Source of the DNA: a virus
Taxonomy: Duplodnaviria; Heunggongvirae; Uroviricota; Caudoviricetes
Strand: one strand, 5' to 3'
Length of the DNA stretch: 35,146 nt
IMG/VR virus record: IMGVR_UViG_2909309443_000004
Shown: positions 5,026 through 31,921 of the stretch, one piece after another
How positions within the stretch are numbered: the first letter of the stretch is position 1
Layout: the number at the start of each line of letters is the position of its first letter
Position numbers and translations under genes: made by a program
Notes under the pieces: model-generated
What the model saw: only the letters and a program-made list of their open reading frames with translations
What the model was told of the DNA's origin: nothing
Databases searched by the model: none

Positions 5026-5102
5026 TTACCGTTGAGGTAATAATTATGCTTATTTGGTTTGGTGTCAATAGATATGAGTTAAAAAAATTACCCGTAAGGT
5101 AA
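5026..5102 (-). promoter_or_regulatory. leftward early promoter with two operator copies (OL-like)
   Basis: TTACCGTTGAGGTAA at 5026-5040 and TTACCCGTAAGGTAA at 5088-5102 flank a minus-strand -35 TTGACA (complement of 5063-5068). An AT-rich -10 region lies around 5041-5047. Confidence 0.65.
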
Positions 5103-5159: not shown

Positions 5160-5744
5160 TTATTGTTTGCTTTTTTCGTTCTGGTTGATGACAAATTCAA
5201 TGTAACTTTCGATCTTTGCCTTCTCTGTTTCAGGTAACAATGCGTAGCGCGAGCGGTCATAGTTGATAGTCGCGGGGTCGTGCGGGTGAATCAGTAATTC
5301 ATATCCGTGACGCCCAAATGCGGATGCAACATTCTCCAGGGTGGAAATGGAAACGCTGACCTCATTGTTTAACAGGCGGCTGATTGTTACCTGGGCGACG
5401 CCGGATGCGCGGTGAAGTTTTCCCTGCGTTGAAAGGTCGCGGCTTTCGCTCATCCAGCGTTCCAGGTTGTGAGCCGCCAGTTGACCAATGTCGCTTGGTC
5501 CGACAGGCTGAAAACCTTCCTGAGAAAGCGAGCGATCGATATCAAGCCAGTTACGGGGTTTATTGGCGGCAGCTTCAATTTTTCGCGCAACCTGGTCGCC
5601 GATAACCTTCTTGCCAAGAGCCCAGCGGTTTACCAGATTTGCCTGAGTTCCAAGTTTTTCAGCCATCCGCGTCTGAACACCATTGAATTCACGGTCGATC
5701 AAGTCGTTGAGATTTTGCCTGCGGACGTCCTGGATACTTTTCAT
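5160..5744 (-). CDS. prophage repressor with two HTH domains and no S24 peptidase domain
   Basis: 194 aa. N-terminal XRE-type HTH (TRMAEKLGTQANLVNRWALGKK) and a second HTH (LHRASGVAQVTISRLLNNEVSVS). No Ala-Gly / Ser..Lys autocleavage module. Divergent from a Cro-like gene across a triple operator. Confidence 0.82.
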   Translation of the reverse strand: MKSIQDVRRQNLNDLIDREFNGVQTRMAEKLGTQANLVNRWALGKKVIGDQVARKIEAAANKPRNWLDIDRSLSQEGFQPVGPSDIGQLAAHNLERWMSESRDLSTQGKLHRASGVAQVTISRLLNNEVSVSISTLENVASAFGRHGYELLIHPHDPATINYDRSRYALLPETEKAKIESYIEFVINQNEKSKQ

Positions 5745-6199: not shown

Positions 6200-6279
6200 T
6201 AAAAAACCAAATATGGTTGATCTTTTTTTTGTGTCAGCACAAAATAACCGTAATCCCAATACTAATAACAGGGCTTACC

Positions 6280-8130: not shown

Positions 8131-8207
8131 TTACCTGGAAGGTAATAAAATGTTCTAATCTCTATTGATTTCATGTCTTATGTGGTTTTTAATTACCTAA
8201 GGGGTAA
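8131..8207 (+). promoter_or_regulatory. promoter flanked by two perfect operators
   Basis: TTACCTGGAAGGTAA (8131-8145) and TTACCTAAGGGGTAA (8193-8207). TTGATT (8165-8170), 17-nt spacer, TTTAAT (8188-8193). The second operator covers the predicted start site and the RBS of the next ORF. Confidence 0.65.
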
Positions 8208-8210
8208 ATC

Positions 8211-8333
8211 ATGAGAAAACAGATACAGGCTCTTGGTCGACTCAAAACAGGCCAGATGAACAAAACAGAATCTGCGTATTGCCAGCACCTTGAGCTGCGT
8301 AAACGTGCAGGGGAAATCGCCTGGTATCGATTC
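8211..8333 (+). pseudogene. 5' fragment of a small phage nuclease-like gene (DUF1064/resolvase-like by eye)
   Basis: MRKQIQALGRLKTGQMNKTESAYCQHLELRKRAGEIAWYRF looks like the N-terminus of a conserved family. After codon F (8331-8333) the frame reads unrelated sequence and stops at 8399. Confidence 0.45.
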
Positions 8334-8523
8334 ACCATCAGTGCCTGCAACACCAGAAGTTCAGGCAGCACCACAGGAGCAGGATGCCGCCGTTGTTGAT
8401 GCCCGCGACGAAGAAACTCGTCGCCGTCGCGCTGCTGCTGGTCGTAGTTCTACGCTGCTTACCGGTTCTCAGGGCGACACATCAACCGCTAATACCAGCG
8501 GTAAAACGCTGCTTGGTCAGTAA
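8334..8523 (+). pseudogene. 3' fragment of a T7 gp7.3-like small virion protein gene
   Basis: A different frame reads ..PEVQAAPQEQDAAVVDARDEETRRRRAAAGRSSTLLTGSQGDTSTANTSGKTLLGQ* and ends 14 nt before the portal start. No credible start codon or RBS of its own. Confidence 0.45.
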
Positions 8524-8537
8524 CCGGAGTCATTGAA

Positions 8538-10217
8538 ATGGCGGAAACAACTAAAGAGCGATTGAACAAACAGTTCGCACAACTTGAAAGCGAGCGTCAG
8601 TCGTTCGAGCCGCACTGGCGCGAGTTGAGTGATTACATCAACCCGCGTGGTTCCCGCTTTCTGACTTCTGAGGTCAACCGTAACGATCGACGCAATACAC
8701 GCATTATTGATTCGACCGGGACTATGGCGGCGCGCACTCTCGCCAGCGGCATGATGTCAGGCATCACAAGCCCCGCGCGTCCGTGGTTTCGCCTGGCTAC
8801 GCCAGATCCTGAAATGATGGATTATGGCCCTGTTAAGTTGTGGCTTGAGGCGGTGCAGAACCGCATGAACGATATGTTCAATAAGTCGAATCTCTATCAG
8901 TCGCTGCCGCAGTTATACGGAAGCCTCGGCACATACAGCACTGGCGCAATGGCGGTGCTGGAGGATGACGAGGACATCATTCGTACAATGCCATTCCCGA
9001 TAGGAAGTTACTACCTGGCTAACTCACCTCGTGGCAGTGTGGACACCTGTTTTCGCAAGTTCTCTATGACTGTTCGTCAGCTTGTTCAGGAGTTCGGGCT
9101 AAATAACGTCAGCGAATCCGTAAAAAGCATGTGGGAAAGCGGCACCTACGAGAAGTGGATTGACGTGATGCATTCGGTTTACCCGAACATTGACCGCGAT
9201 ACATCGAAGCTGGATAGCAAGAACAAGCCATTCAAATCGGTTTATTACGAGGTTGGTGGCGATAACGACAAGTTGTTGCGTGAGTCCGGATTTGATGAGT
9301 TTCCAATTATGGCTCCGCGCTGGGAAGTTAACGGCGAAGATGTTTATGGATCATCATGCCCGGGTATGCTGGCGCTTGGAGCTGTTAAGGCATTGCAGCT
9401 TCTCCAGAAGCGCAAGTCGCAGTTGATTGATAAAGCCACCAATCCGCCGATGGTTGCTCCGACTTCCCTCAAGAATCAGCGTGCCTCCCTTCTTCCTGGC
9501 GACATCACGTATATCGATCAGATTACTGGTCAGGATGGTTTCAGGCCTGCTTATCTGGTTAACCCCAGTACAGCAGATTTGGTGGCAGACATTCAGGACA
9601 CTCGTCAAATCATTAACAGCGCCTACTTTGTCGATCTGTTCATGATGTTGCAGAACATCAATACCCGCTCGATGCCTGTTGAAGCGGTGATCGAAATGAA
9701 AGAAGAAAAACTTCTGATGTTGGGGCCGGTTCTGGAGCGTCTGAACGACGAATGTCTTAACCCTCTCATTGACCGCGCTTTCTCGATGATGGTGCGTAAA
9801 AACATGCTGCCGCCACCGCCTGACGCGATGGAAGGTATGCCCCTGAAGGTCGAATACATTTCCGTCATGGCTCAGGCGCAGAAGTCTATCGGCCTGTCCA
9901 GTCTGGCGTCCACGGTTAACTTCATTGGTCAACTTGCGCAAGCGAAACCAGAAGCTCTCGACAAACTCAACGTTGATCAGGCGATCGATGCATTCGCTGA
10001 TATGTCCGGAGTGTCTCCAACCGTCATTGTTCCGCAGGAACAGGTTGAGCAGGCTCGCCAGCAACGGGCACAGCAACAACAGCAGCAACAAATGATGGCG
10101 ATGGGGATGGCGGCGGCACAGGGTGCCAAGACGCTAAGCGAAGCTAAAACTTCGGATCCGAGTGTTTTGTCAGCTATGGCGAATGCAGTTAGTGGTCAGG
10201 GTGGGCAATCACAATGA
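8538..10217 (+). CDS. portal protein (T7-type head-to-tail connector family)
   Basis: 559 aa. N-terminus RLNKQFAQLESERQSFEPHWRELSDYINPRGSRF..RNTRIIDSTGTMAARTLASGMMSGITSPARPWFRL is typical of podovirus portals. Gln-rich C-terminus. Confidence 0.9.
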   Translation: MAETTKERLNKQFAQLESERQSFEPHWRELSDYINPRGSRFLTSEVNRNDRRNTRIIDSTGTMAARTLASGMMSGITSPARPWFRLATPDPEMMDYGPVKLWLEAVQNRMNDMFNKSNLYQSLPQLYGSLGTYSTGAMAVLEDDEDIIRTMPFPIGSYYLANSPRGSVDTCFRKFSMTVRQLVQEFGLNNVSESVKSMWESGTYEKWIDVMHSVYPNIDRDTSKLDSKNKPFKSVYYEVGGDNDKLLRESGFDEFPIMAPRWEVNGEDVYGSSCPGMLALGAVKALQLLQKRKSQLIDKATNPPMVAPTSLKNQRASLLPGDITYIDQITGQDGFRPAYLVNPSTADLVADIQDTRQIINSAYFVDLFMMLQNINTRSMPVEAVIEMKEEKLLMLGPVLERLNDECLNPLIDRAFSMMVRKNMLPPPPDAMEGMPLKVEYISVMAQAQKSIGLSSLASTVNFIGQLAQAKPEALDKLNVDQAIDAFADMSGVSPTVIVPQEQVEQARQQRAQQQQQQQMMAMGMAAAQGAKTLSEAKTSDPSVLSAMANAVSGQGGQSQ

Positions 10218-23050: not shown

Positions 23051-25525
23051 ATGAGACAGGAATGTATACAAGCGGTCCAGCAGGCGGCGCAGCGCACGTT
23101 AACGGCGCGAGAAATACAGAACATTGAAGACCGCATTTATCGAAATATGCGCTCCATTGCTCGTGATGACCCGATGTCGTGGCGACAACTTTCCGAATCA
23201 GAACGGTTGTATCGTGCAGCACAATTGGCATCTGAAGAATTACAGCGAGAAGCGGCATTAAAGAAACGTCGTGTGGCCCTCACTATAGCCGCACGTCAGA
23301 GATTGGATAAATTTATCAATAACTATCAAGGGGCTGATGGGAAACTTGGCGCTCTTAACCGTACTATTGCTTTTAATGCAGACGGTAAATCGAATTTCCT
23401 CTCTGTTGAATCCAGAACAAAAGCCACTCGTGATTATGCATTGAGTCAATTGCAGGAGGCATTTGAAGCAGTTGATCCTCGCTTTTTTGGCCTGTTTGAA
23501 GATGAAGCGGGCGTGCGTGACCTGGTATATGAAATGCGAGGGCAAAATACTGGCAATGCTAAAGCAAGAAAAGGTGCTAAGGCGTGGAGAGAAGTGACAG
23601 ATCTACTTCGCCGCCGGTTTAATGATGCTGGTGGGGACATTGGCTATCTCGAAAACTGGGGGATCCCTCAACATCATTCTATGGAAAAGGTTGGGGCGGT
23701 ATCAAAAGATAAATGGGTTAGCGATGTTATAGGTAAGCTGGATCGCAAATATTATACCCGAGCCGATGGACAACTGATGAACGATGCCGAGTTGTCTGCA
23801 TTTCTTGGAGAGGCTTATAACACGATCGCTACTGGTGGGCTGAATAAGCTTACTGACACCGGAATGCGAATTTCCGGAGCACGTGCTAACCGTGGTAATG
23901 CATCACGACAGATACATTTCAAAGATGCAGATTCCTATCTGCAATATCAGCAACTTTATGGCGATCGCTCTCTATGGGAAATCATGGTCGGTCACCTGGA
24001 AGGTATCAGTAAAGATATTGCACTGGTGGAAACATATGGCCCAAACCCCGATCATGTTTTCCGCTCTCTTCTTGATCAGGTGAAGGCAGAAACGGCAACA
24101 GCTAACCCGAGTAAAACCGGTAGCGTCGAGCGTCTGGCGAACAAAACAGAGAACTTGTACAACTTTATTTCCGGAAAAACACAGCCTGTAGCGAATCCCC
24201 ACATCGCGCGATGGTCTGACAATATCCGCAACTGGCTGGTTGCCAGCAGACTCGGATCCGCGTTGCTGTCATCGTTCTCTGATCTTGGAACCATGTATCT
24301 GTCTGCGAAGGTTACCAACCTTCCAATGAACCAGTTATTTCGCAACCAGCTTGAAGCTATTGACCCAACGAACCGTACTGAGCTTGCGCGGGCGCGCCGC
24401 GCTGGCCTGGCGATGGAATCTCTACTTGGCAGCGTTAACCGCTGGGCGATGGATAATATGGGGCCGTCTGTGTCTCGTTGGGCGGCAACGGCGGTAATGC
24501 GTGCCAGTGGGCTTACAGCATGGTCAGATGCGCACAAGCGCGCCTATGGCGTAACCATGATGGGAAGCCTGGGAGAAGTAGTGTCACGGACACCAGACCT
24601 TCGTAGCCTCGATGACTCTGATTTTCGTATCCTGAAAAGTAAAGGGATTACTGACACAGACTGGAGCGTATGGAAGCTGGCGCAACAGGAGGACTGGGGG
24701 AACGGTAATAATACGATGCTGACACCGGAAAGCATTATGCGTATCCCTGATTCAGCAGTTAAACATCTTGGTGAGCCTGAACGCGTGAAATTTGAGGCAA
24801 TGCGTAAACTGCTCGGTGCCGTAACTGAAGAAGTTGATATGGCTGTTATTACACCGGGCGCACGTGAGCAGATGTTCGTAGGGTCTGGTCTTCAGCGTGG
24901 AACATGGAAAGGTGAATTAACGAGAAGTGTTTTCCTGTTTAAATCGTTCCCTATCTCGGTTGTTATGCGTCACTGGTCACGCGCTATGGGTATGCCGTCT
25001 GCTGGTGGGCGTGCAGCATATATAGCAACGTTTTTAGCAAGCACAACCATGCTTGGTGCTCTTTCCATGCAGATTACTGATCTTATTAATGGGAGAAATC
25101 CAAAGGAAATGACCGGTGACCACATGGTTAAATTCTGGATAAATGCATTTTTAAAAGGTGGCGGGGCTGGGTTGTACGGTGATTTTCTTTTCTCTGACCA
25201 CACTAGGTACGGGAGCGGCGCGCTGGCGTCGATGCTTGGCCCGGTAGCTGGTCTGGTTGATGATGTAGTGAAGATTGCTCAGGGCATACCGTTAAATGCT
25301 GTGGAAGGGAAGAGTGAGCAGACTGGTGGTGATCTGGTGAAGCTGGGGAAAGGTTTGATGCCTGGTGCGAATCTCTGGTACTTGAAGGCGGCTCTCGATC
25401 ACATGATCTTTAACCAGATGCAGGAGTATTTTTCACCAGGTTATTTGCGTAAAATGGAGCAACGTTCGAAGAAAGAGTTTAACCAGACATACTGGTGGCG
25501 ACCACAGGATGTCACTCCGCAATAA
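23051..25525 (+). CDS. internal virion / ejection protein (824 aa)
   Basis: Large ORF. The C-terminal third has hydrophobic segments (AAYIATFLASTTMLGALSMQI, FWINAFLKGGGAGLYGDFLF). Last gene of the structural block before the accessory island. Confidence 0.6.
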   Translation: MRQECIQAVQQAAQRTLTAREIQNIEDRIYRNMRSIARDDPMSWRQLSESERLYRAAQLASEELQREAALKKRRVALTIAARQRLDKFINNYQGADGKLGALNRTIAFNADGKSNFLSVESRTKATRDYALSQLQEAFEAVDPRFFGLFEDEAGVRDLVYEMRGQNTGNAKARKGAKAWREVTDLLRRRFNDAGGDIGYLENWGIPQHHSMEKVGAVSKDKWVSDVIGKLDRKYYTRADGQLMNDAELSAFLGEAYNTIATGGLNKLTDTGMRISGARANRGNASRQIHFKDADSYLQYQQLYGDRSLWEIMVGHLEGISKDIALVETYGPNPDHVFRSLLDQVKAETATANPSKTGSVERLANKTENLYNFISGKTQPVANPHIARWSDNIRNWLVASRLGSALLSSFSDLGTMYLSAKVTNLPMNQLFRNQLEAIDPTNRTELARARRAGLAMESLLGSVNRWAMDNMGPSVSRWAATAVMRASGLTAWSDAHKRAYGVTMMGSLGEVVSRTPDLRSLDDSDFRILKSKGITDTDWSVWKLAQQEDWGNGNNTMLTPESIMRIPDSAVKHLGEPERVKFEAMRKLLGAVTEEVDMAVITPGAREQMFVGSGLQRGTWKGELTRSVFLFKSFPISVVMRHWSRAMGMPSAGGRAAYIATFLASTTMLGALSMQITDLINGRNPKEMTGDHMVKFWINAFLKGGGAGLYGDFLFSDHTRYGSGALASMLGPVAGLVDDVVKIAQGIPLNAVEGKSEQTGGDLVKLGKGLMPGANLWYLKAALDHMIFNQMQEYFSPGYLRKMEQRSKKEFNQTYWWRPQDVTPQ

Positions 25526-27029: not shown

Positions 27030-27758
27030 TCAGAAGAACCCTGCCTTGTCGTTGATGTACTCCGCGTGGGTCTGGATATCACGCAGGCATTTGCTCACAC
27101 CGACGATGTAGCAGAACATGGTGGTCAGTTCCGCCGCCGCGCCCGATACGTCATGCCCGTCTTCCTGTAACTGGTTCAGCAAATTCATCAGCAGTGAGTT
27201 CTCCGTCAGGCCGAGAACACCAGACGGTGAATGAATCAGGCTACGGTAGCCGGGCTTCAGTGGGGCGCTGTAGGTTTTGTTCTCTATCTTCATTGCCTGC
27301 ATCACTGCTGATGCTGTGGCGTTGGCTACCTGGTCGGCAACCATCTTTATGCGTTCTTCTTGCGGGAGCGAGTTTTTAATGTAACTTCCGGTGCGGCGGA
27401 TCTGAGGAAGAACCTCACCTGTAACCCATTTACGAAAGCGGTATGGGATAGTGCCTGGTGTCACCGCATCGCGGCAGCGGAGGATCAGTGTGTAGAGGCC
27501 TGACTCGTTGATAATATTGGTTTCGCCTTGACGGCCTAAGTTAAATTTAGCCCTTTCATCATCATCAAGAGATTTTATTGACATAGTGGGGTTTGTCAGT
27601 TGAAGAGCTTTAATAACGTCTTTGGCAACAAACCAAGGATTAATCGCAAATCCAACTCTCCTCAGAGTTATAACGCTCAAACGCTTTACACATACTTTGT
27701 GTTGGTGCTGGAGGGCGTTCAAGGGCAGCCATGACTTGCTCCCAAACATCCTCTTCAA
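27030..27758 (-). CDS. Bro-N domain protein with an Ant-like C-terminal domain (start uncertain)
   Basis: Bro-N core NPWFVAKDVIKAL..ESGLYTLILRCRD..RFRKWVTGEVLPQIRRTGSY. The C-terminal 63 aa match the 28868-29125 protein at 28/63 identities (hand alignment). The track start is TTG 27758 and the first ATG is 27749, both inside the upstream RHH gene in another frame. The next in-frame ATG (27584) would cut the Bro-N domain. Confidence 0.7.
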   Translation of the reverse strand: MKRMFGSKSWLPLNALQHQHKVCVKRLSVITLRRVGFAINPWFVAKDVIKALQLTNPTMSIKSLDDDERAKFNLGRQGETNIINESGLYTLILRCRDAVTPGTIPYRFRKWVTGEVLPQIRRTGSYIKNSLPQEERIKMVADQVANATASAVMQAMKIENKTYSAPLKPGYRSLIHSPSGVLGLTENSLLMNLLNQLQEDGHDVSGAAAELTTMFCYIVGVSKCLRDIQTHAEYINDKAGFF

Positions 27759-27924
27759 CGATCAAGCGGCGATGTTCATTAATAACTGTTTCAGCTCTAA
27801 AAGTCGTAGACTCCATTACAAATTGAGATACGGACACTTTAGAAATAACAGCAGCTTCTTCGATACGGCGCTTCGCAGCTTCGGGCAGACGAAACTCGAA
27901 CCGCTCCTTTCTTACTGCGTTCAT
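27640..27924 (-). CDS. DUF1778/TacA-like ribbon-helix-helix protein (antitoxin-type) with no GNAT toxin partner
   Basis: 94 aa from ATG 27924 (AGGAG 5 nt upstream). RFEFRLPEAAKRRIEEAAVISKVSVSQFVMESTTFRAETVINEHRRLIVEEDVWEQVMAALERPPAPT is collinear by eye with TacA/DUF1778 antitoxins over the full length. Confidence 0.65.
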   Translation of the reverse strand: MNAVRKERFEFRLPEAAKRRIEEAAVISKVSVSQFVMESTTFRAETVINEHRRLIVEEDVWEQVMAALERPPAPTQSMCKAFERYNSEESWICD

Positions 27925-27988
27925 AACAACTCCTGAGCTAATGCTCACAGTGGTTTATACCACATAACGATATGCACGGTACGGGAAT

Positions 27989-28003
27989 TTACCGTACAGG
28001 TAA
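27989..28003. promoter_or_regulatory. operator copy upstream of the RHH/Bro-N genes
   Basis: Perfect TTACCGTACAGGTAA, 65 nt upstream of the RHH start. Confidence 0.6.
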
Positions 28004-28081
28004 TGATAAGCGCGAAGAAATATTAAAATCAACCTTATTTGGTTGATTGCGTTTAACGCTTGATCACCTGAAAGCAAGATA

Positions 28082-28096
28082 TTACCTTTAAGGTAA
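28082..28096. promoter_or_regulatory. operator copy upstream of the TM/zinc-ribbon gene
   Basis: Perfect TTACCTTTAAGGTAA, identical to the 26949 copy, 21 nt upstream of the ATG at 28117. Confidence 0.6.
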
Positions 28097-28116
28097 TGTT
28101 ATTGTGAGGAAAAGCA

Positions 28117-28845
28117 ATGGAAGTTTTCTGGATAGTTGTTGGTGTGGTTGCGGTGATTATTTACGTTATCAACCAGAACAAGACTAAGATCTCTGATCGT
28201 ACGGTCGTTAATCATAACAAAACGATAAAGACCGAAGATGGGGAGATAACGATTAATCGTACACAGGTGATAGAACACACCTCTACTCAGTTTCAAAAAA
28301 CTGGAGGTAATGCGCCTAATATTTCCGCACCTCCTGCTTATGATAGTGCGGTAATCCAGACATATTATAAACAGCAGGAGTTAGCAAAAGAGAGGCAACT
28401 GATTCAGCCAAAGCCGTTTACAACTGAGATTCCACCTGGAGTGTCAACGCGTCCGGCATATCATGGAAGATTCCCTGGTGATGACATATCGTCTCAGTCA
28501 TCTAAAAAAGCACCTCAGGCAATATCAGAGCCAGCAAGAATACCTTCTGTATCGCCGCAAAAAGAAGAATCAGCTAACAGAGTTTCAAGTGGTAGCAAGC
28601 AGTGCTTGCGATGCAGAATAAACCTTCCATATGAAAAATTCAGGAAATCGTCAAAAAATCCAGATGGATTGACTAAATGGTGTGCAAGGTGTCTCGATGG
28701 CCCAAAGAATACACGCCATATGAAGTGGTGCCCAATTTGTAATGTCCGCAGAAAACGAACCAGCTTTTACCCTAATAATCAAAATGCGGACGGCTTAATG
28801 GCATGGTGCAAAACGTGCTGGGATGAGCACAAAGCGAAACGATAG
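28117..28845 (+). CDS. membrane-anchored protein with two tandem Cys4 zinc-ribbon repeats
   Basis: 242 aa. N-terminal TM helix (VFWIVVGVVAVIIYVI) and a Pro/Ser/Gln-rich linker. C-terminal repeats CLRCRINLPYEKFRKSSKNPDGLTKWCARC and CPICNVRRKRTSFYPNNQNADGLMAWCKTC (C-x2-C..F..DGL..WC-x2-C). Confidence 0.75.
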   Translation: MEVFWIVVGVVAVIIYVINQNKTKISDRTVVNHNKTIKTEDGEITINRTQVIEHTSTQFQKTGGNAPNISAPPAYDSAVIQTYYKQQELAKERQLIQPKPFTTEIPPGVSTRPAYHGRFPGDDISSQSSKKAPQAISEPARIPSVSPQKEESANRVSSGSKQCLRCRINLPYEKFRKSSKNPDGLTKWCARCLDGPKNTRHMKWCPICNVRRKRTSFYPNNQNADGLMAWCKTCWDEHKAKR

Positions 28846-28861
28846 GCCGCTCTTGCGGCCT
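28844..28861 (+). terminator. hairpin terminator between convergent genes
   Basis: AGGCCGC-TCTT-GCGGCCT followed by TTAAATTT. Overlaps the stop codon of the 28117 gene. Confidence 0.5.
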
Positions 28862-28867
28862 TTAAAT

Positions 28868-29125
28868 TTACCGGGTTTGTTTTCGTAATTGTTCGGCACA
28901 ATAGTCGAGATGTGTTTGCAGATCCCGCATAGACATCTGTGAGCTGGTGACGTAGTTAATCAGTGCAGTCAGTTCGGCAAGTGGGCCATCGACATTAAAT
29001 CCATCCTTATCGAGATCCCGGAGTAATTTCATCAAGTGCGATCCCTCCACCAGTGACCTGACGCCTCCCGGCGTGTGAATCCTTTCGGTAAATCCGTCTT
29101 CCAGTGGATAGTGATACCGCTGCAT
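28868..29125 (-). CDS. ant: small antirepressor-like protein (85 aa) behind a LexA box
   Basis: ATG at 29125 with GGAG 8 nt upstream (the track start at 29143 is a TTG). Paralogous to the C-terminus of the Bro-N protein. The function call rests on the SOS box, the non-cleavable repressor and precedent in related phages. Confidence 0.6.
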   Translation of the reverse strand: MQRYHYPLEDGFTERIHTPGGVRSLVEGSHLMKLLRDLDKDGFNVDGPLAELTALINYVTSSQMSMRDLQTHLDYCAEQLRKQTR

Positions 29126-29144
29126 CTTATCTTCTCCATGCAAT

Positions 29145-29164
29145 AACTGTATATTTATACAGTA
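29145..29164. promoter_or_regulatory. LexA (SOS) box
   Basis: AACTGTATATTTATACAGTA matches the E. coli consensus TACTGTATATATATACAGTA at 18/20, with an intact CTG-N10-CAG. Lies 20-40 nt upstream of the ant start. Confidence 0.8.
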
Positions 29165-29201
29165 TCAAATAATTTGTTTGCTATCCAGCACGTTTTGCAA
29201 A

Positions 29202-29216
29202 TTACCCGAAAGGTAA
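29202..29216. promoter_or_regulatory. operator copy in the ant/tailspike divergent region
   Basis: Perfect TTACCCGAAAGGTAA. Confidence 0.6.
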
Positions 29217-29320
29217 TATCTATTCATATTCACAGCCTTTCTATCCATATGTGGTTTTTCAGGTAATAGAATAACCAGATATGCGGCGCAACGGGTGCTG
29301 CGACTATCTGGAGATTTAAC

Positions 29321-31921
29321 ATGACGGTCTCAACCGAAGTTGACCACAACGAATACACCGGTAACGGCGTTACGACATCATTTCCGTATACCTTCCGTAT
29401 TTTCAAAAAAACCGACCTGGTTGTTCAGGTGTCTGATCTGAACGGGAACGTAACAGAATTGGTTCTGGATACCGGTTATAAGGTAACTGGAGCGGGCACT
29501 TATAGTGGCGGTGAAGTGGTTCTCCCGTCGCCGCTTGCTGCTGGCTGGCGAATTACGATAGAGCGTGTGCTTGATGTGGTGCAGGAGACTGATCTTCGCA
29601 ATCAGGAAAAATTTTTCCCCGAAGTTCATGAAGATGCATTTGACTACCTGACGATGCTGATCCAGCGATGTTTTGGGTGGTTCAGACGTGCATTGATGAA
29701 ACCCTCGTTGCTTGCAAAATATTACGATGCAAAGCAAAACAGAATATCTAACCTTGCTGATCCATCACTTGAGCAGGACGCTGTAAATAATCGCTCAATG
29801 CGTAATTATGTCGATGCTGCAATCGCCGGGGTTGTTGGTGGTTTTGGTTGGTTTATTCAGTATGGTTCTGGAGCAGTATACCGAACGTTCCAGGATAAGA
29901 TGCGGGATGAAGTAAATATTCGTGATTTTGGAGCAGGAGATTCAGGTGAAGTTACAGATGCTATTTTGAAGGCTGTTGCAGCTACTAATGGCACCATTAT
30001 TATCCCGGATGGAAATTATGTTTCTACTCCAACAGTAACGCAGACTCCGAACGTTATGAAATTGCTTTCACGAGCAGAGTTTAGAGGTTCTTTGACCATC
30101 AATCTTCCTGTTGGAACTGTTAACCTATCAGAAAAGACGCTAATCAGATCACAAAATGTTCATAAACTTTCTATTTCTGGTATTACGTATTCAACTACGC
30201 TAACTGGCTTAGTGGGTGTATCTGGTATCCCCAAATCATACCTAGTTACGCTCTCTCTGGCTGATGCTTCAAACGTTTCTGTAGGCGACGTCGTGATGAT
30301 TCGTCACGATATAACGGGGACAGGAGGATATCACATCCATTGTGGCGGATGGGTTGTGACTGCCGTGTCTGGCAAAAATGTTACCGTAAAAAACACCTGC
30401 CACCTGTCTGAATTACCAACGTCAACGATTACAGGCGGAACAGTAGTCATACTAAAAAGTATTCTGAGATATGCCGGATGTGATGGGATTGTGGCTGCAG
30501 GTGCTGGGTGCATTAAGACAATAAACGGTGTCGCAATTGTTGGTGATTATGACCTTGTGGCCGGCACTGGAACTATTGGTGCGCATGGTTTCTCCCTCAC
30601 TACTCCAGACATTACTGTTGCCATCCCAGACCCATCCAACGTGGTTTTTGATGCGTCAGGATGTATAGCAATTGGGCCTGATCTGGCGATCGTTGGGTTC
30701 GGAGAACAGGGGGTCGTGGCTTCAGAAAGATCTGGTGTGGTTTCAAACTTTATATCTTCATGCTCTAACCGCAAGCGCGGTGTATATTCTGAAGGCGCTC
30801 ATATACGCGGTAAATTTATGCTTTGCTCAGGGAATGGTGAGGATGGGATTATTGCTGATATTGGTGGCGCAATACAGGCTAACGGATCAGTTTGCTCTGG
30901 CAATGGGTTGAATGGGTTCTGGTCTTTTAATCATAGTTTTTTGGGGGCACCAGGGGGGATTGCGTGCGGTAACTATACCAATGGTGGTGAATCACGCGGA
31001 CCAGGTGCATTAAATCTGCAAAATGGGAAGAGCTATTTAAACAGGCTAATTGGTGTAACCGCTTCAAATAGCGGTGCAGTTATTTTCACTAACTCAACTG
31101 CCACACAAAATGGCACGGATGGTCTGGTTGCTGTTTACGATGGCTTAATATCTGCCGCCAATGCCAATTCAACGAGCAACGGTCGCTATGGGGTTAACGT
31201 AACTCACGCAAAAATTGTGCTTAAAGGCTCTGGAGGAGTGACTGGTAACACAACGGGAGATTACATCGATAACGGCGAGGGCACAATAATCAAGCCAGAT
31301 GGTACTATGCTGCCGAGGAATGCTGGCCCGCAAAGCATCCTTTCTATTCGTAACGCCAATCTTTCCGGTGCTGATGTCACGGCATCATCAATAGGCGATC
31401 TCACCGTCTCGCAAAGAAACACATCCTCGGGTGCATTAACCCCCCTGTATGTATTCAAATCTGACGGAACCCAGCATCCAGTCAATGACGCCACGCAGAA
31501 CCTTGGCAGGGCAAGCAATCGCTACAATGTTGGTTTCTTCGCTGGCGGAACACAGTCAACTTCAGATGCCACACTTAAAGACCCTATCCGGGAGTTCAAT
31601 CAGGCCGAACTCAATGCAGCAATGCGCATCTCGAAAATGTTTGGATTCTGGACGTGGCTTGATGATGACAGTAAGCGTTTGCATGCAGGGACTACGGTTC
31701 AAGCAGTGTTAGCTGTTCTGGAAGAGGAAGGTCTAGACTGGCGGAGCTATGGATTTATCTGTTTTGATGAGTGGGATGATGAATATACCCCGGTAACCAT
31801 TGAGGTAGATGGCGAAGTCGTTGAAACTGGCGAACTGCAATTAGTACGTGAGTCTGGTTCTGTATGGCAATTACGCGATCAGGAATTTGACAGATTCGTG
31901 ATGCGTGGACTTTCCGAATGA
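29321..31921 (+). CDS. tailspike: conserved N-terminal particle-binding domain, beta-helix enzyme domain, C-terminal S74-type intramolecular chaperone
   Basis: 866 aa. N-terminus TEVDHNEYTGNGVTTSFPYTFRIF. Pectate-lyase-type start DFGAGDSGEVTDAILKAVAATNGTIIIPDGNYV. C-terminus LGRASNRYNVGFFAGGTQSTSDATLKD (S-D-x-x-x-K), with Ser748 at 31562-31564. Confidence 0.85.
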   Translation: MTVSTEVDHNEYTGNGVTTSFPYTFRIFKKTDLVVQVSDLNGNVTELVLDTGYKVTGAGTYSGGEVVLPSPLAAGWRITIERVLDVVQETDLRNQEKFFPEVHEDAFDYLTMLIQRCFGWFRRALMKPSLLAKYYDAKQNRISNLADPSLEQDAVNNRSMRNYVDAAIAGVVGGFGWFIQYGSGAVYRTFQDKMRDEVNIRDFGAGDSGEVTDAILKAVAATNGTIIIPDGNYVSTPTVTQTPNVMKLLSRAEFRGSLTINLPVGTVNLSEKTLIRSQNVHKLSISGITYSTTLTGLVGVSGIPKSYLVTLSLADASNVSVGDVVMIRHDITGTGGYHIHCGGWVVTAVSGKNVTVKNTCHLSELPTSTITGGTVVILKSILRYAGCDGIVAAGAGCIKTINGVAIVGDYDLVAGTGTIGAHGFSLTTPDITVAIPDPSNVVFDASGCIAIGPDLAIVGFGEQGVVASERSGVVSNFISSCSNRKRGVYSEGAHIRGKFMLCSGNGEDGIIADIGGAIQANGSVCSGNGLNGFWSFNHSFLGAPGGIACGNYTNGGESRGPGALNLQNGKSYLNRLIGVTASNSGAVIFTNSTATQNGTDGLVAVYDGLISAANANSTSNGRYGVNVTHAKIVLKGSGGVTGNTTGDYIDNGEGTIIKPDGTMLPRNAGPQSILSIRNANLSGADVTASSIGDLTVSQRNTSSGALTPLYVFKSDGTQHPVNDATQNLGRASNRYNVGFFAGGTQSTSDATLKDPIREFNQAELNAAMRISKMFGFWTWLDDDSKRLHAGTTVQAVLAVLEEEGLDWRSYGFICFDEWDDEYTPVTIEVDGEVVETGELQLVRESGSVWQLRDQEFDRFVMRGLSE

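What the first reader, a model, noticed from the sequence alone, without database searches (positions are those of the whole stretch)
28082..28861. Membrane-anchored protein with two tandem Cys4 zinc ribbons of the type usually found in phage nuclease N-termini
The 242-aa ORF has a single N-terminal TM helix and a roughly 130-aa low-complexity Pro/Ser/Gln linker. It ends in two back-to-back repeats of C-x2-C-x(9-10)-F-x(6-7)-DGL-x3-WC-x2-C. To my knowledge that ribbon normally occurs as a single soluble nucleic-acid-binding module at the N-terminus of HNH/homing-endonuclease-like phage proteins. Here it is duplicated, has no catalytic domain, and is tethered to the membrane. The gene has its own operator (28082-28096) and terminator, and it is divergent from the RHH/Bro-N pair. 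Tethering a DNA-binding module at the inner membrane suggests interference with incoming DNA (superinfection exclusion), but that is speculation.
Basis: partly seen in the sequence, partly recalled or inferred. Interest (0 to 1): 0.5.

Follow-up and report, generated by a model that had tools for sequence, protein, structure and literature searches.

The report
Membrane-tethered double zinc-finger prophage protein
An optional gene of an epsilon15-like E. coli prophage encodes an uncharacterised inner-membrane protein that dangles two highly basic zinc fingers into the cytoplasm on a floppy tether; it sits where phages usually keep genes that block rival phages, but that role is inferred, not shown.

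Summary
ORF 28117-28845 (+) encodes 242 aa: one N-terminal TM helix, a conserved juxtamembrane hairpin, a roughly 105-aa disordered Ser/Pro/Gln/Ala tether, and two copies of C-x2-C-x8-F-x7-DGL-x2-WC-x2-C. All eight Cys are invariant in 40 homologues at 21-63% identity. In 38 E. coli alleles the finger domain is under strong purifying selection.

The fingers match the accessory modules of phage HNH/EndoVII nucleases and Pfam Stc1. Their closest folds are PacI and Hpy99I. Tandem copies are common, with up to 12 in soluble relatives; what is distinctive is the membrane tether.

The family (PHROG 6762, function unknown) spans Gammaproteobacterial prophages. The gene is accessory: 133 E. coli genomes carry it against 324 with the matching ejection-protein gene.

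It occupies two classic exclusion-gene slots. One lies between the ejection-protein genes and the tailspike, beside antirepressor genes, like P22 sieA. The other lies directly downstream of cI, like lambda rex.

Here its -10 lies inside a repressor operator that recurs 11 times in the window, so it is probably expressed when repressor is absent.

Best reading (about 0.35): a catalytically dead membrane trap for incoming phage DNA or its conduit. Function is untested.

The parts
28117..28845 (+). Coding sequence, 242 aa: membrane-tethered tandem zinc-finger protein (PHROG 6762; RefSeq WP_044316654.1, 'hypothetical protein')
   Evidence: Purifying selection is shown.
28117..28182 (+). Residues 1-22: Met-Glu followed by a 17-residue hydrophobic helix. 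This is a signal-anchor predicted to be N-out/C-in.
   Evidence: KD mean is 2.33. AF2 gives helix 3-22. Residue 2 is acidic in 33 of 40 homologues, and K/R follow the helix. The topology itself is inferred from the positive-inside rule.
28183..28272 (+). Residues 23-52: conserved juxtamembrane segment (NQN-K/R-T ... T-x-KT-x-DGE ... ER-T), predicted to be a beta-hairpin
   Evidence: Conservation is shown. AF2 gives strands 29-39 and 42-52 at low confidence.
28273..28590 (+). Residues 53-158: disordered Ser/Pro/Gln/Ala-rich tether, variable in length and sequence
28591..28842 (+). Residues 159-242: two Cys4 zinc fingers (aa 163-192 and 205-234), net charge +14
   Evidence: All 8 Cys are invariant.
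28060..28088 (+). Putative promoter: -35 TTGATC (28060-28065), 17-nt spacer, -10 TACCTT (28083-28088)
   Evidence: The same -35/17 nt/TACCTT geometry occurs in the Serratia (L003) and Enterobacter (L007) orthologous regions. It was not found by the generic promoter scan, so it is inferred.
28081..28097 (.). Operator palindrome ATTACCTTTAAGGTAAT overlapping the -10 and the likely transcription start
   Evidence: 11 sites in the window against 0.62 expected. Palindrome reported.
27989..28003 (.). Second operator, 93 bp upstream. It abuts the -10 (TATCAT) of the divergent RHH/Bro-N promoter.
28844..28861 (+). Intrinsic terminator hairpin overlapping the stop codon, between convergent genes

Best explanation
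The product is a bitopic inner-membrane protein. Its two-residue N-terminus faces the periplasm, and a single helix anchors it. Everything else is cytoplasmic: a conserved juxtamembrane hairpin, a disordered tether of about 100 residues, and a strongly basic pair of Cys4 zinc fingers.

The fingers are derived from the accessory modules of HNH/EndoVII nucleases. They have no conserved catalytic residues.

I propose that it is a single-gene, phage-encoded exclusion or defence factor. The fingers would capture a polyanionic ligand at the cytoplasmic face of the membrane. The most likely ligand is the leading end of an infecting phage genome, or the conduit proteins that deliver it. Capture would hold the ligand there stoichiometrically and block productive entry.

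In this epsilon15-like phage the gene is probably switched on when repressor is absent, that is early after infection and after induction. In lambda-like prophages it is co-transcribed with cI.

Shown: the sequence architecture, its conservation, selection on the gene, its accessory status, and its genomic slots.

Inferred: topology, zinc binding, nucleic-acid binding, timing of expression, and exclusion itself.
For: Architecture and conservation.

Finger domain:
- It carries a net charge of +10 to +19 (mean +14) in all 40 diverse members, although the individual basic positions vary.
- It is under strong purifying selection, while the tether is free to vary.
- Its nearest folds and families are DNA-cutting beta-beta-alpha-Me enzymes and their N-terminal fingers.

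Accessory, moron-like gene:
- It has its own promoter and terminator.
- Its GC content is 42.9% against 49.2% for the window.
- It is absent from phiV10 and other 95%-identical phages.
- It is present in 133 E. coli genomes, against 324 that carry the matching ejection-protein gene.

Genomic slots:
- In epsilon15-like prophages of Escherichia, Serratia, Enterobacter, Superficieibacter, Acinetobacter and Yersinia, it lies between the ejection-protein genes and the tailspike, beside Bro-N, KilA-N/ANT, Rha or ORF6N genes.
- That matches the place of sieA in P22. [quoted passage not shown] The P22 gene order is from my own knowledge.
- In lambda-like prophages it lies 15-18 nt downstream of a cI-type repressor on the same strand. 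Examples are L017, L018, L093/L098 and Aeromonas phage phiARM81mr. In L014, L016 and L102 it lies tail-to-tail with cI. This is the rexAB position.

Precedent: SNIPE has the same N-out TM anchor with a cytoplasmic DNA-binding domain and acts on DNA during injection (PMC13190303).
Against: - There is no experimental datum for any family member.
- PADLOC, NCBIfam and Pfam give no significant hit.
- The only characterised Stc1-domain protein is a protein-protein adaptor, not a DNA binder (PMC2875855).
- In this phage the operator overlaps the -10, so the gene is probably off in the stable lysogen. P22 sieA and lambda rex are expressed in lysogens.
- In L015 a hairpin lies between cI and the gene.
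- A basic domain could instead bind RNA, acidic lipids or an acidic protein.
- Context is suggestive only, because immunity regions also hold regulators.
Confidence: 0.35

Rival explanations
1. It is a membrane tether for a protein partner that tunes the lysis-lysogeny decision. The fingers would act as a protein-binding adaptor, as in Stc1. They would sequester a repressor, an antirepressor or a host factor (for example a protease or polymerase subunit) at the membrane.
For: - The gene always sits in immunity-control regions, next to cI or next to antirepressor genes.
- It shares the repressor operator with the divergent RHH/Bro-N antirepressor operon.
- Stc1 is a protein adaptor (PMC2875855).
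- The N-terminal TM, flexible linker and C-terminal binding domain resemble ZipA (own knowledge).
Against: - The gene is missing from about 60% of otherwise similar E. coli prophages, so it is not part of the core switch.
- No partner gene is conserved beside it.
- A conserved charge of +10 to +19 fits a polyanion better than a specific protein surface.
Confidence: 0.2
2. It anchors the phage's own DNA, or its replication or packaging machinery, to the membrane during lytic growth. The known analogue is phi29 p16.7.
For: - The repressor-controlled promoter predicts early lytic expression in this phage.
- The basic finger domain sits on a membrane anchor.
- p16.7 is an integral membrane protein that recruits phi29 DNA to the membrane (PMC4974454).
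Against: - Its accessory distribution among near-identical phages argues against a replication role.
- Operonic linkage to cI in lambda-like prophages implies expression in lysogens.
- It is not located in the replication module.
Confidence: 0.12
3. It is a counter-defence factor. It would be an early-expressed membrane-tethered decoy or inhibitor aimed at a membrane-associated host defence or a nuclease.
For: - It lies in a variable accessory region, with early repressor-gated expression and a divergent small RHH regulator, as in Aca-controlled anti-defence loci.
- There is a PHROG hit to a family labelled Lar-like restriction alleviation, E 1.8e-9.
- A dead nuclease-derived module could mimic or compete with a nuclease.
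Against: - The PHROG label reflects only the shared finger.
- Co-transcription with cI in other prophages is atypical for anti-defence genes.
- No linkage to a particular defence system was seen.
Confidence: 0.1

Closest known systems
P22 SieA (superinfection exclusion, inner membrane)
   Same: Both are phage-encoded inner-membrane proteins encoded by a single gene. In epsilon15-like prophages the gene lies between the ejection-protein genes and the tailspike, beside antirepressor genes. That is the place of sieA in P22 (PMC10883804; gene order from own knowledge).
   Different: No sequence similarity was found; nothing named SieA appeared in any search. As far as I recall, SieA has no zinc fingers and no long cytoplasmic tether. 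SieA is expressed from the prophage, whereas this gene is probably repressor-gated here.
SNIPE (membrane-bound nuclease that cuts injected phage DNA)
   Same: Both have an N-out single TM anchor with a cytoplasmic, positively charged DNA-binding region. Membrane localisation provides the self/non-self logic (PMC13190303).
   Different: SNIPE has DUF4041 and a GIY-YIG nuclease and acts catalytically. This protein has no nuclease domain and no conserved catalytic residues. PADLOC gives no hit.
N-terminal Cys4 fingers of phage HNH / endonuclease VII proteins; Zn sites of PacI and Hpy99I
   Same: The finger motif and fold are the same.
   Different: In those proteins the finger accompanies, or is part of, a beta-beta-alpha-Me catalytic core in a soluble protein. 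Here two fingers stand alone on a membrane tether.
Pfam Stc1 domain (PF12898)
   Same: Both are 8-Cys tandem fingers. Multi-repeat relatives retrieved with this protein's profile pass the Pfam threshold.
   Different: The protein itself scores 21.1 bits against a cut-off of 24.8. Stc1 is a eukaryotic soluble adaptor between Ago1 and CLRC (PMC2875855).
phi29 p16.7 and E. coli ZipA (architectural analogues)
   Same: All have an N-terminal membrane anchor followed by a spacer and a C-terminal ligand-binding domain in the cytoplasm. p16.7 binds DNA. ZipA has a P/Q-rich linker (own knowledge).
   Different: The folds and ligands are unrelated, and both analogues are core functions rather than accessory genes.

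Membership tests
PHROG 6762 (function unknown) | Full-length match to the family profile | tested here: met
   E 9.9e-149, residues 1-242 matched to profile positions 1-242.
Pfam Stc1 domain (PF12898) | Score at or above the gathering threshold of 24.8 bits | tested here: not met
   The protein scores 21.1 bits, E 4.9e-4. Relatives P0038, P0034, P0068 and P0165, found with its profile, do pass. It is therefore a superfamily-level relative, not a called member.
HNH / endonuclease VII (beta-beta-alpha-Me) nucleases | Catalytic His/Asn/Asp motif (for example DHDH ... N) within the finger or in an adjoining domain | tested here: not met
   Only the Cys, Trp and Gly are invariant across 40 members. 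There is no conserved His or Asn. PHROG matches cover only the N-terminal finger parts of the nuclease profiles. Pfam gives no HNH or Endonuclease_7 hit.
HNH / endonuclease VII (beta-beta-alpha-Me) nucleases | Cys4 zinc-site fold | tested here: met
Superinfection-exclusion proteins of the SieA / Imm type | Inner-membrane location | tested here: inconclusive
   There is one strong hydrophobic helix, and the positive-inside rule applies. No fractionation is possible with these tools.
Superinfection-exclusion proteins of the SieA / Imm type | Expression blocks DNA entry of superinfecting phage | not testable with these tools
   This needs plating, potassium-efflux or labelled-DNA assays.
Superinfection-exclusion proteins of the SieA / Imm type | Sequence homology to a known Sie protein | tested here: not met
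   No such hit was found in PHROGs, Pfam, NCBIfam, PADLOC or PDB.
Known anti-phage defence systems (PADLOC-DB v2) | Match to any model | tested here: not met
   The best hit has E 0.76 (TniQ), which is noise.
Zinc-binding Cys4 finger | Four Cys ligands per module, conserved, in a reducing compartment | tested here: met
   All 8 Cys are invariant. The AF2 model is confident. The cytoplasmic location is inferred, and zinc content is not testable here.

The most novel reading that the evidence does not exclude
A widespread, previously unrecognised single-gene exclusion or defence family in Gammaproteobacterial prophages. In it a catalytically dead, nuclease-derived tandem zinc finger, tethered to the inner membrane by a long disordered leash, physically traps incoming phage DNA (or its ejection conduit) at the entry site. 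This would be a non-enzymatic counterpart of SNIPE, and a mechanistic class distinct from SieA, Imm and Sp.
Probability: 0.25. Interest if true: 0.7.

Novelty: new variant of a known kind. Interest (0 to 1): 0.45.

Why it matters
If the protein excludes phages, it would add a simple one-gene mechanism that acts at the cytoplasmic face of the membrane without an enzyme. That bears on two questions: how cells tell incoming DNA from resident DNA by location, and how prophages shape phage host range in E. coli, including ETEC and EHEC lineages that carry this prophage type. It would also give a first function to a zinc-finger module that is very common, and unexplained, at the front of phage HNH/EndoVII nucleases and in long tandem arrays. 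The gene is short, and its parts (anchor, hairpin, tether, fingers) can be separated, so the idea is easy to test.

Tried and rejected
- Fold search with the full-length model found nothing (best E 0.57), because the tether is disordered. The C-terminal domain was therefore modelled alone.
- The afdb50 library was unavailable.
- A profile of the N-terminal anchor plus hairpin was searched to see whether it is fused to other effector domains. It returned only truncated fragments of the same gene, so no alternative partners were found.
- PADLOC and NCBIfam gave only noise.
- The PDB sequence search gave only marginal hits, with the PacI N-terminus at E 0.08.
- The generic sigma-70 scan did not find the gene's promoter. 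The promoter was inferred by comparing orthologous upstream regions.
- Cleavable signal peptide: rejected. There is no basic n-region, residue 2 is acidic, and there is no cleavage motif.
- Spanin or holin role: rejected. The gene is not in the lysis cassette, and the charge distribution points the C-terminus inward.
- Active nuclease: rejected. No conserved catalytic residues are present.
- Pseudogene in TL-2011b: rejected. The ORF there is intact and merely unannotated.
- A literature search for membrane zinc-ribbon exclusion proteins found no description of this family.

Full report
WHAT IS THERE

The window is an epsilon15-like (Uetakevirus-type) prophage of E. coli. Its closest relatives are TL-2011b and phiV10. 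It carries an integrase at 1-1251 and an HTH_3 repressor at 5160-5744 (-). The tailspike at 29321-31921 shares only its start with those of epsilon15-type Salmonella phages (window 28874-29666, about 75% identity), and phiV10's own annotation notes the same N-terminal similarity to epsilon15 gp20.

The finding corresponds to ORF 28117-28845 (+), 242 aa, with a GAGG Shine-Dalgarno sequence 7 nt upstream of the ATG.

THE PROTEIN

Residues 1-22 are Met-Glu followed by a 17-residue hydrophobic stretch. This is the only hydrophobic segment in the protein, with a Kyte-Doolittle mean of 2.33. AF2 gives a helix at 3-22 with pLDDT about 90.

Residues 23-52 are conserved and predicted, at low confidence, to form a beta-hairpin.

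Residues 53-158 are disordered and rich in Ser, Pro, Gln and Ala.

Residues 159-242 contain two exact copies of C-x2-C-x8-F-x7-DGL-x2-WC-x2-C, at 163-192 and 205-234. Modelled alone, this domain reaches pLDDT 88.6. Each repeat is a CxxC knuckle plus a WCxxC at the start of a helix. That is closer to a treble-clef finger than to a two-hairpin zinc ribbon.

The domain has a net charge of +14.

CONSERVATION

A first search found 33 homologues, all in Enterobacterales. A profile of the finger pair, run against 1.84 billion representatives, found 3134 proteins. These include dozens of proteins of 180-240 aa with the same anchor, hairpin, tether and two-finger layout.

In a 40-sequence alignment at 21-63% identity, M1, all eight Cys, both Trp and G184 are invariant. 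Several features hold across the family:
- Residue 2 is acidic in 33 of 40 members.
- The tether varies from 46 to 104 aa.
- The finger domain keeps a net charge of +10 to +19.

Among 38 distinct E. coli alleles the finger domain has 5 nonsynonymous and 24 synonymous-only variable codons. The tether has 42 and 22. The gene is therefore real and functional. The fingers are the constrained part, and the tether is a spacer.

Topology is inferred to be N-out/C-in. The tail is short and acidic, and K/R residues follow the helix (positive-inside rule). Cys4 sites also need a reducing compartment.

WHAT THE FINGERS RESEMBLE

- PHROG matches, apart from the full-length hit to PHROG 6762 (function unknown, E 1e-148), fall on the N-terminal parts of endonuclease VII, HNH, endonuclease and primase families.
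- BFVD neighbours are HNH, beta-beta-alpha-Me and EndoVII proteins, plus proteins labelled 'Stc1 domain' or 'Zn-finger', from phages and giant viruses.
- Pfam Stc1 is just below threshold for this protein (21.1 against 24.8 bits). Several multi-repeat relatives pass it.

The module is not normally single, however. Soluble arrays of 3-12 copies are common. The module is also fused to Bro-N plus T5orf172, to KilA-N, to an SF1 helicase, to HEAT repeats and to DnaJ.

No His, Asn or Asp is conserved in a way that would suggest catalysis. What is distinctive here is the membrane anchor and the leash, not the duplication.

GENOMIC CONTEXT

The gene is accessory:
- It is absent from phiV10, ZX5 and other phages that are about 95% identical in the flanks.
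- It is intact but unannotated in TL-2011b.
- It is present in 133 of 5426 complete E. coli genomes, against 324 that carry the neighbouring ejection-protein gene.
- PGAP calls it a hypothetical protein.
- Its GC content is 42.9% against 49.2% for the window.

Two recurrent slots emerge.

(i) In epsilon15-like prophages it lies between the last ejection-protein gene and the tailspike, in either orientation. Its neighbours are Bro-N, KilA-N/ANT, Rha or ORF6N antirepressor-type genes. The hosts are Escherichia, Serratia, Enterobacter, Superficieibacter, Acinetobacter and Yersinia. From my own knowledge of the P22 map, this is where P22 keeps sieA next to immI. [quoted passage not shown]

(ii) In lambda-like prophages it lies 15-18 nt downstream of a cI-type repressor on the same strand. 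The repressor has HTH_3 plus Peptidase_S24, or HTH only in L093/L098. Examples are L017, L018 and L093/L098, from Marinobacterium, Neptunomonas and uncultured viral contigs. In Aeromonas phage phiARM81mr the neighbour is annotated as CI repressor, with Cro divergent and exo/RecT/int downstream. Three further loci (L014, L016, L102) have it tail-to-tail with cI. This is the rexAB position of lambda.

No partner gene is conserved beside it, so it acts alone.

REGULATION IN THIS PHAGE

The 15-bp core TTACCnnnnnGGTAA occurs 11 times in the window, against 0.62 expected. The sites flank the repressor gene (5026, 5088, 5800, 5848, 6185). They also precede several transcription units.

Two copies lie 93 bp apart in the divergent intergenic region (27989 and 28082). 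The left copy abuts the -10 of the RHH/Bro-N promoter found by the scan.

For the target gene, a -35 TTGATC lies exactly 17 nt from TACCTT inside the operator. The same geometry, with TTGAAC and TTGACC as the -35, is present upstream of the Serratia and Enterobacter orthologues. I therefore infer that the repressor shuts the gene off in the stable lysogen. Expression would follow infection or induction.

This differs from the cI-linked homologues, which should be expressed in lysogens. A function that is useful in both states fits exclusion or defence better than a replication role.

A hairpin terminator overlaps the stop codon.

MECHANISM

My best reading (about 0.35) is a stoichiometric membrane trap. 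The protein is anchored N-out/C-in. Its leash has a contour length of tens of nanometres and lets the polycationic finger pair sweep the cytoplasmic face of the membrane. There it would bind incoming phage DNA, or the cytoplasmic end of the ejection conduit, and prevent productive entry.

SNIPE shows that an N-out TM anchor with a cytoplasmic DNA-binding domain can target DNA during injection (PMC13190303). Here there is no nuclease.

The rivals are:
- A protein-binding tether that modulates the lysis-lysogeny switch (0.2). Stc1 itself is a protein adaptor (PMC2875855).
- A p16.7-like anchor for the phage's own DNA (0.12; PMC4974454).
- A counter-defence decoy (0.1).

None can be excluded computationally.

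NOVELTY

The family has no Pfam, NCBIfam or PADLOC model. PHROGs gives it no function. I found no paper describing it.

The principle is known: membrane exclusion proteins and membrane-localised DNA-targeting defence both exist. The architecture appears undescribed: a dead nuclease-type tandem finger on a disordered leash. I therefore rate it a new variant of a known kind, of moderate interest, and easy to test.

Noticed in passing
window 5026, 5088, 5800, 5848, 6185, 8131, 8193, 26949, 27989, 28082, 29202: The palindrome (A)TTACCnnnnnGGTAA(T) occurs 11 times against 0.62 expected. It flanks the HTH_3 repressor gene. It also precedes the antirepressor operon, the target gene, the tailspike, and the small ORF 8290-8523 that comes just before the large 559-aa ORF at 8538. 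One repressor appears to gate many promoters directly. At 8193 and 27989 the site abuts the -10.
   Followed up: partly
window 29147-29162 and 28868-29143 (-): A perfect LexA box, CTGTATATTTATACAG, lies 4 nt upstream of a 91-aa gene (PHROG 450). That gene is homologous to the C-terminal third of the Bro-N protein. The repressor has no S24 domain. This looks like an SOS-controlled small antirepressor that triggers induction.
   Followed up: partly
window about 5049-5059, 6207-6217, 8175-8185, 28034-28044, 29245-29255: A short motif, approximately cTTAT(T/G)TGGTT, recurs 8-31 nt downstream of five of the operators, always on the + strand. Its role (promoter element or second regulator site) is unexplained.
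   Followed up: no
L001 5124-5852 (TL-2011b NC_019445, 34513-35241): The published TL-2011b genome marks this region only as a misc_feature, 'similar to hypothetical protein'. The 242-aa ORF there is intact and 96% identical, so it is a missed CDS.
   Followed up: yes
window 27640-27948 (-) and 27030-27758 (-): A TacA1/DUF1778-type RHH gene (Pfam E 2.8e-19) sits with no toxin partner directly upstream of the Bro-N gene and overlaps it. It probably acts as an Arc/Mnt-like regulator rather than an antitoxin.
   Followed up: no
proteins P0034-P0181: The same Cys4 module forms soluble arrays of up to 12 copies. It is also fused to Bro-N plus T5orf172, KilA-N, an SF1 helicase, HEAT repeats and DnaJ. 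It is a very common, functionally unexplained module of mobile elements and giant viruses.
   Followed up: partly
L105 (E. coli O6:H16 M9682-C1, NZ_CP024275): This genome matches the two stretches compared (window 28040-28870 and 23051-25525) at 100% identity. Its prophage tailspike gene is truncated, with an IS100 (IS21-family) element about 660 bp downstream, whereas the window's tailspike is intact.
   Followed up: no
L017 8654-9307: In the Marinobacterium prophage the gene downstream of the homologue encodes a staphylococcal-nuclease plus Excalibur domain protein. This is the only locus seen with a nuclease neighbour.
   Followed up: no
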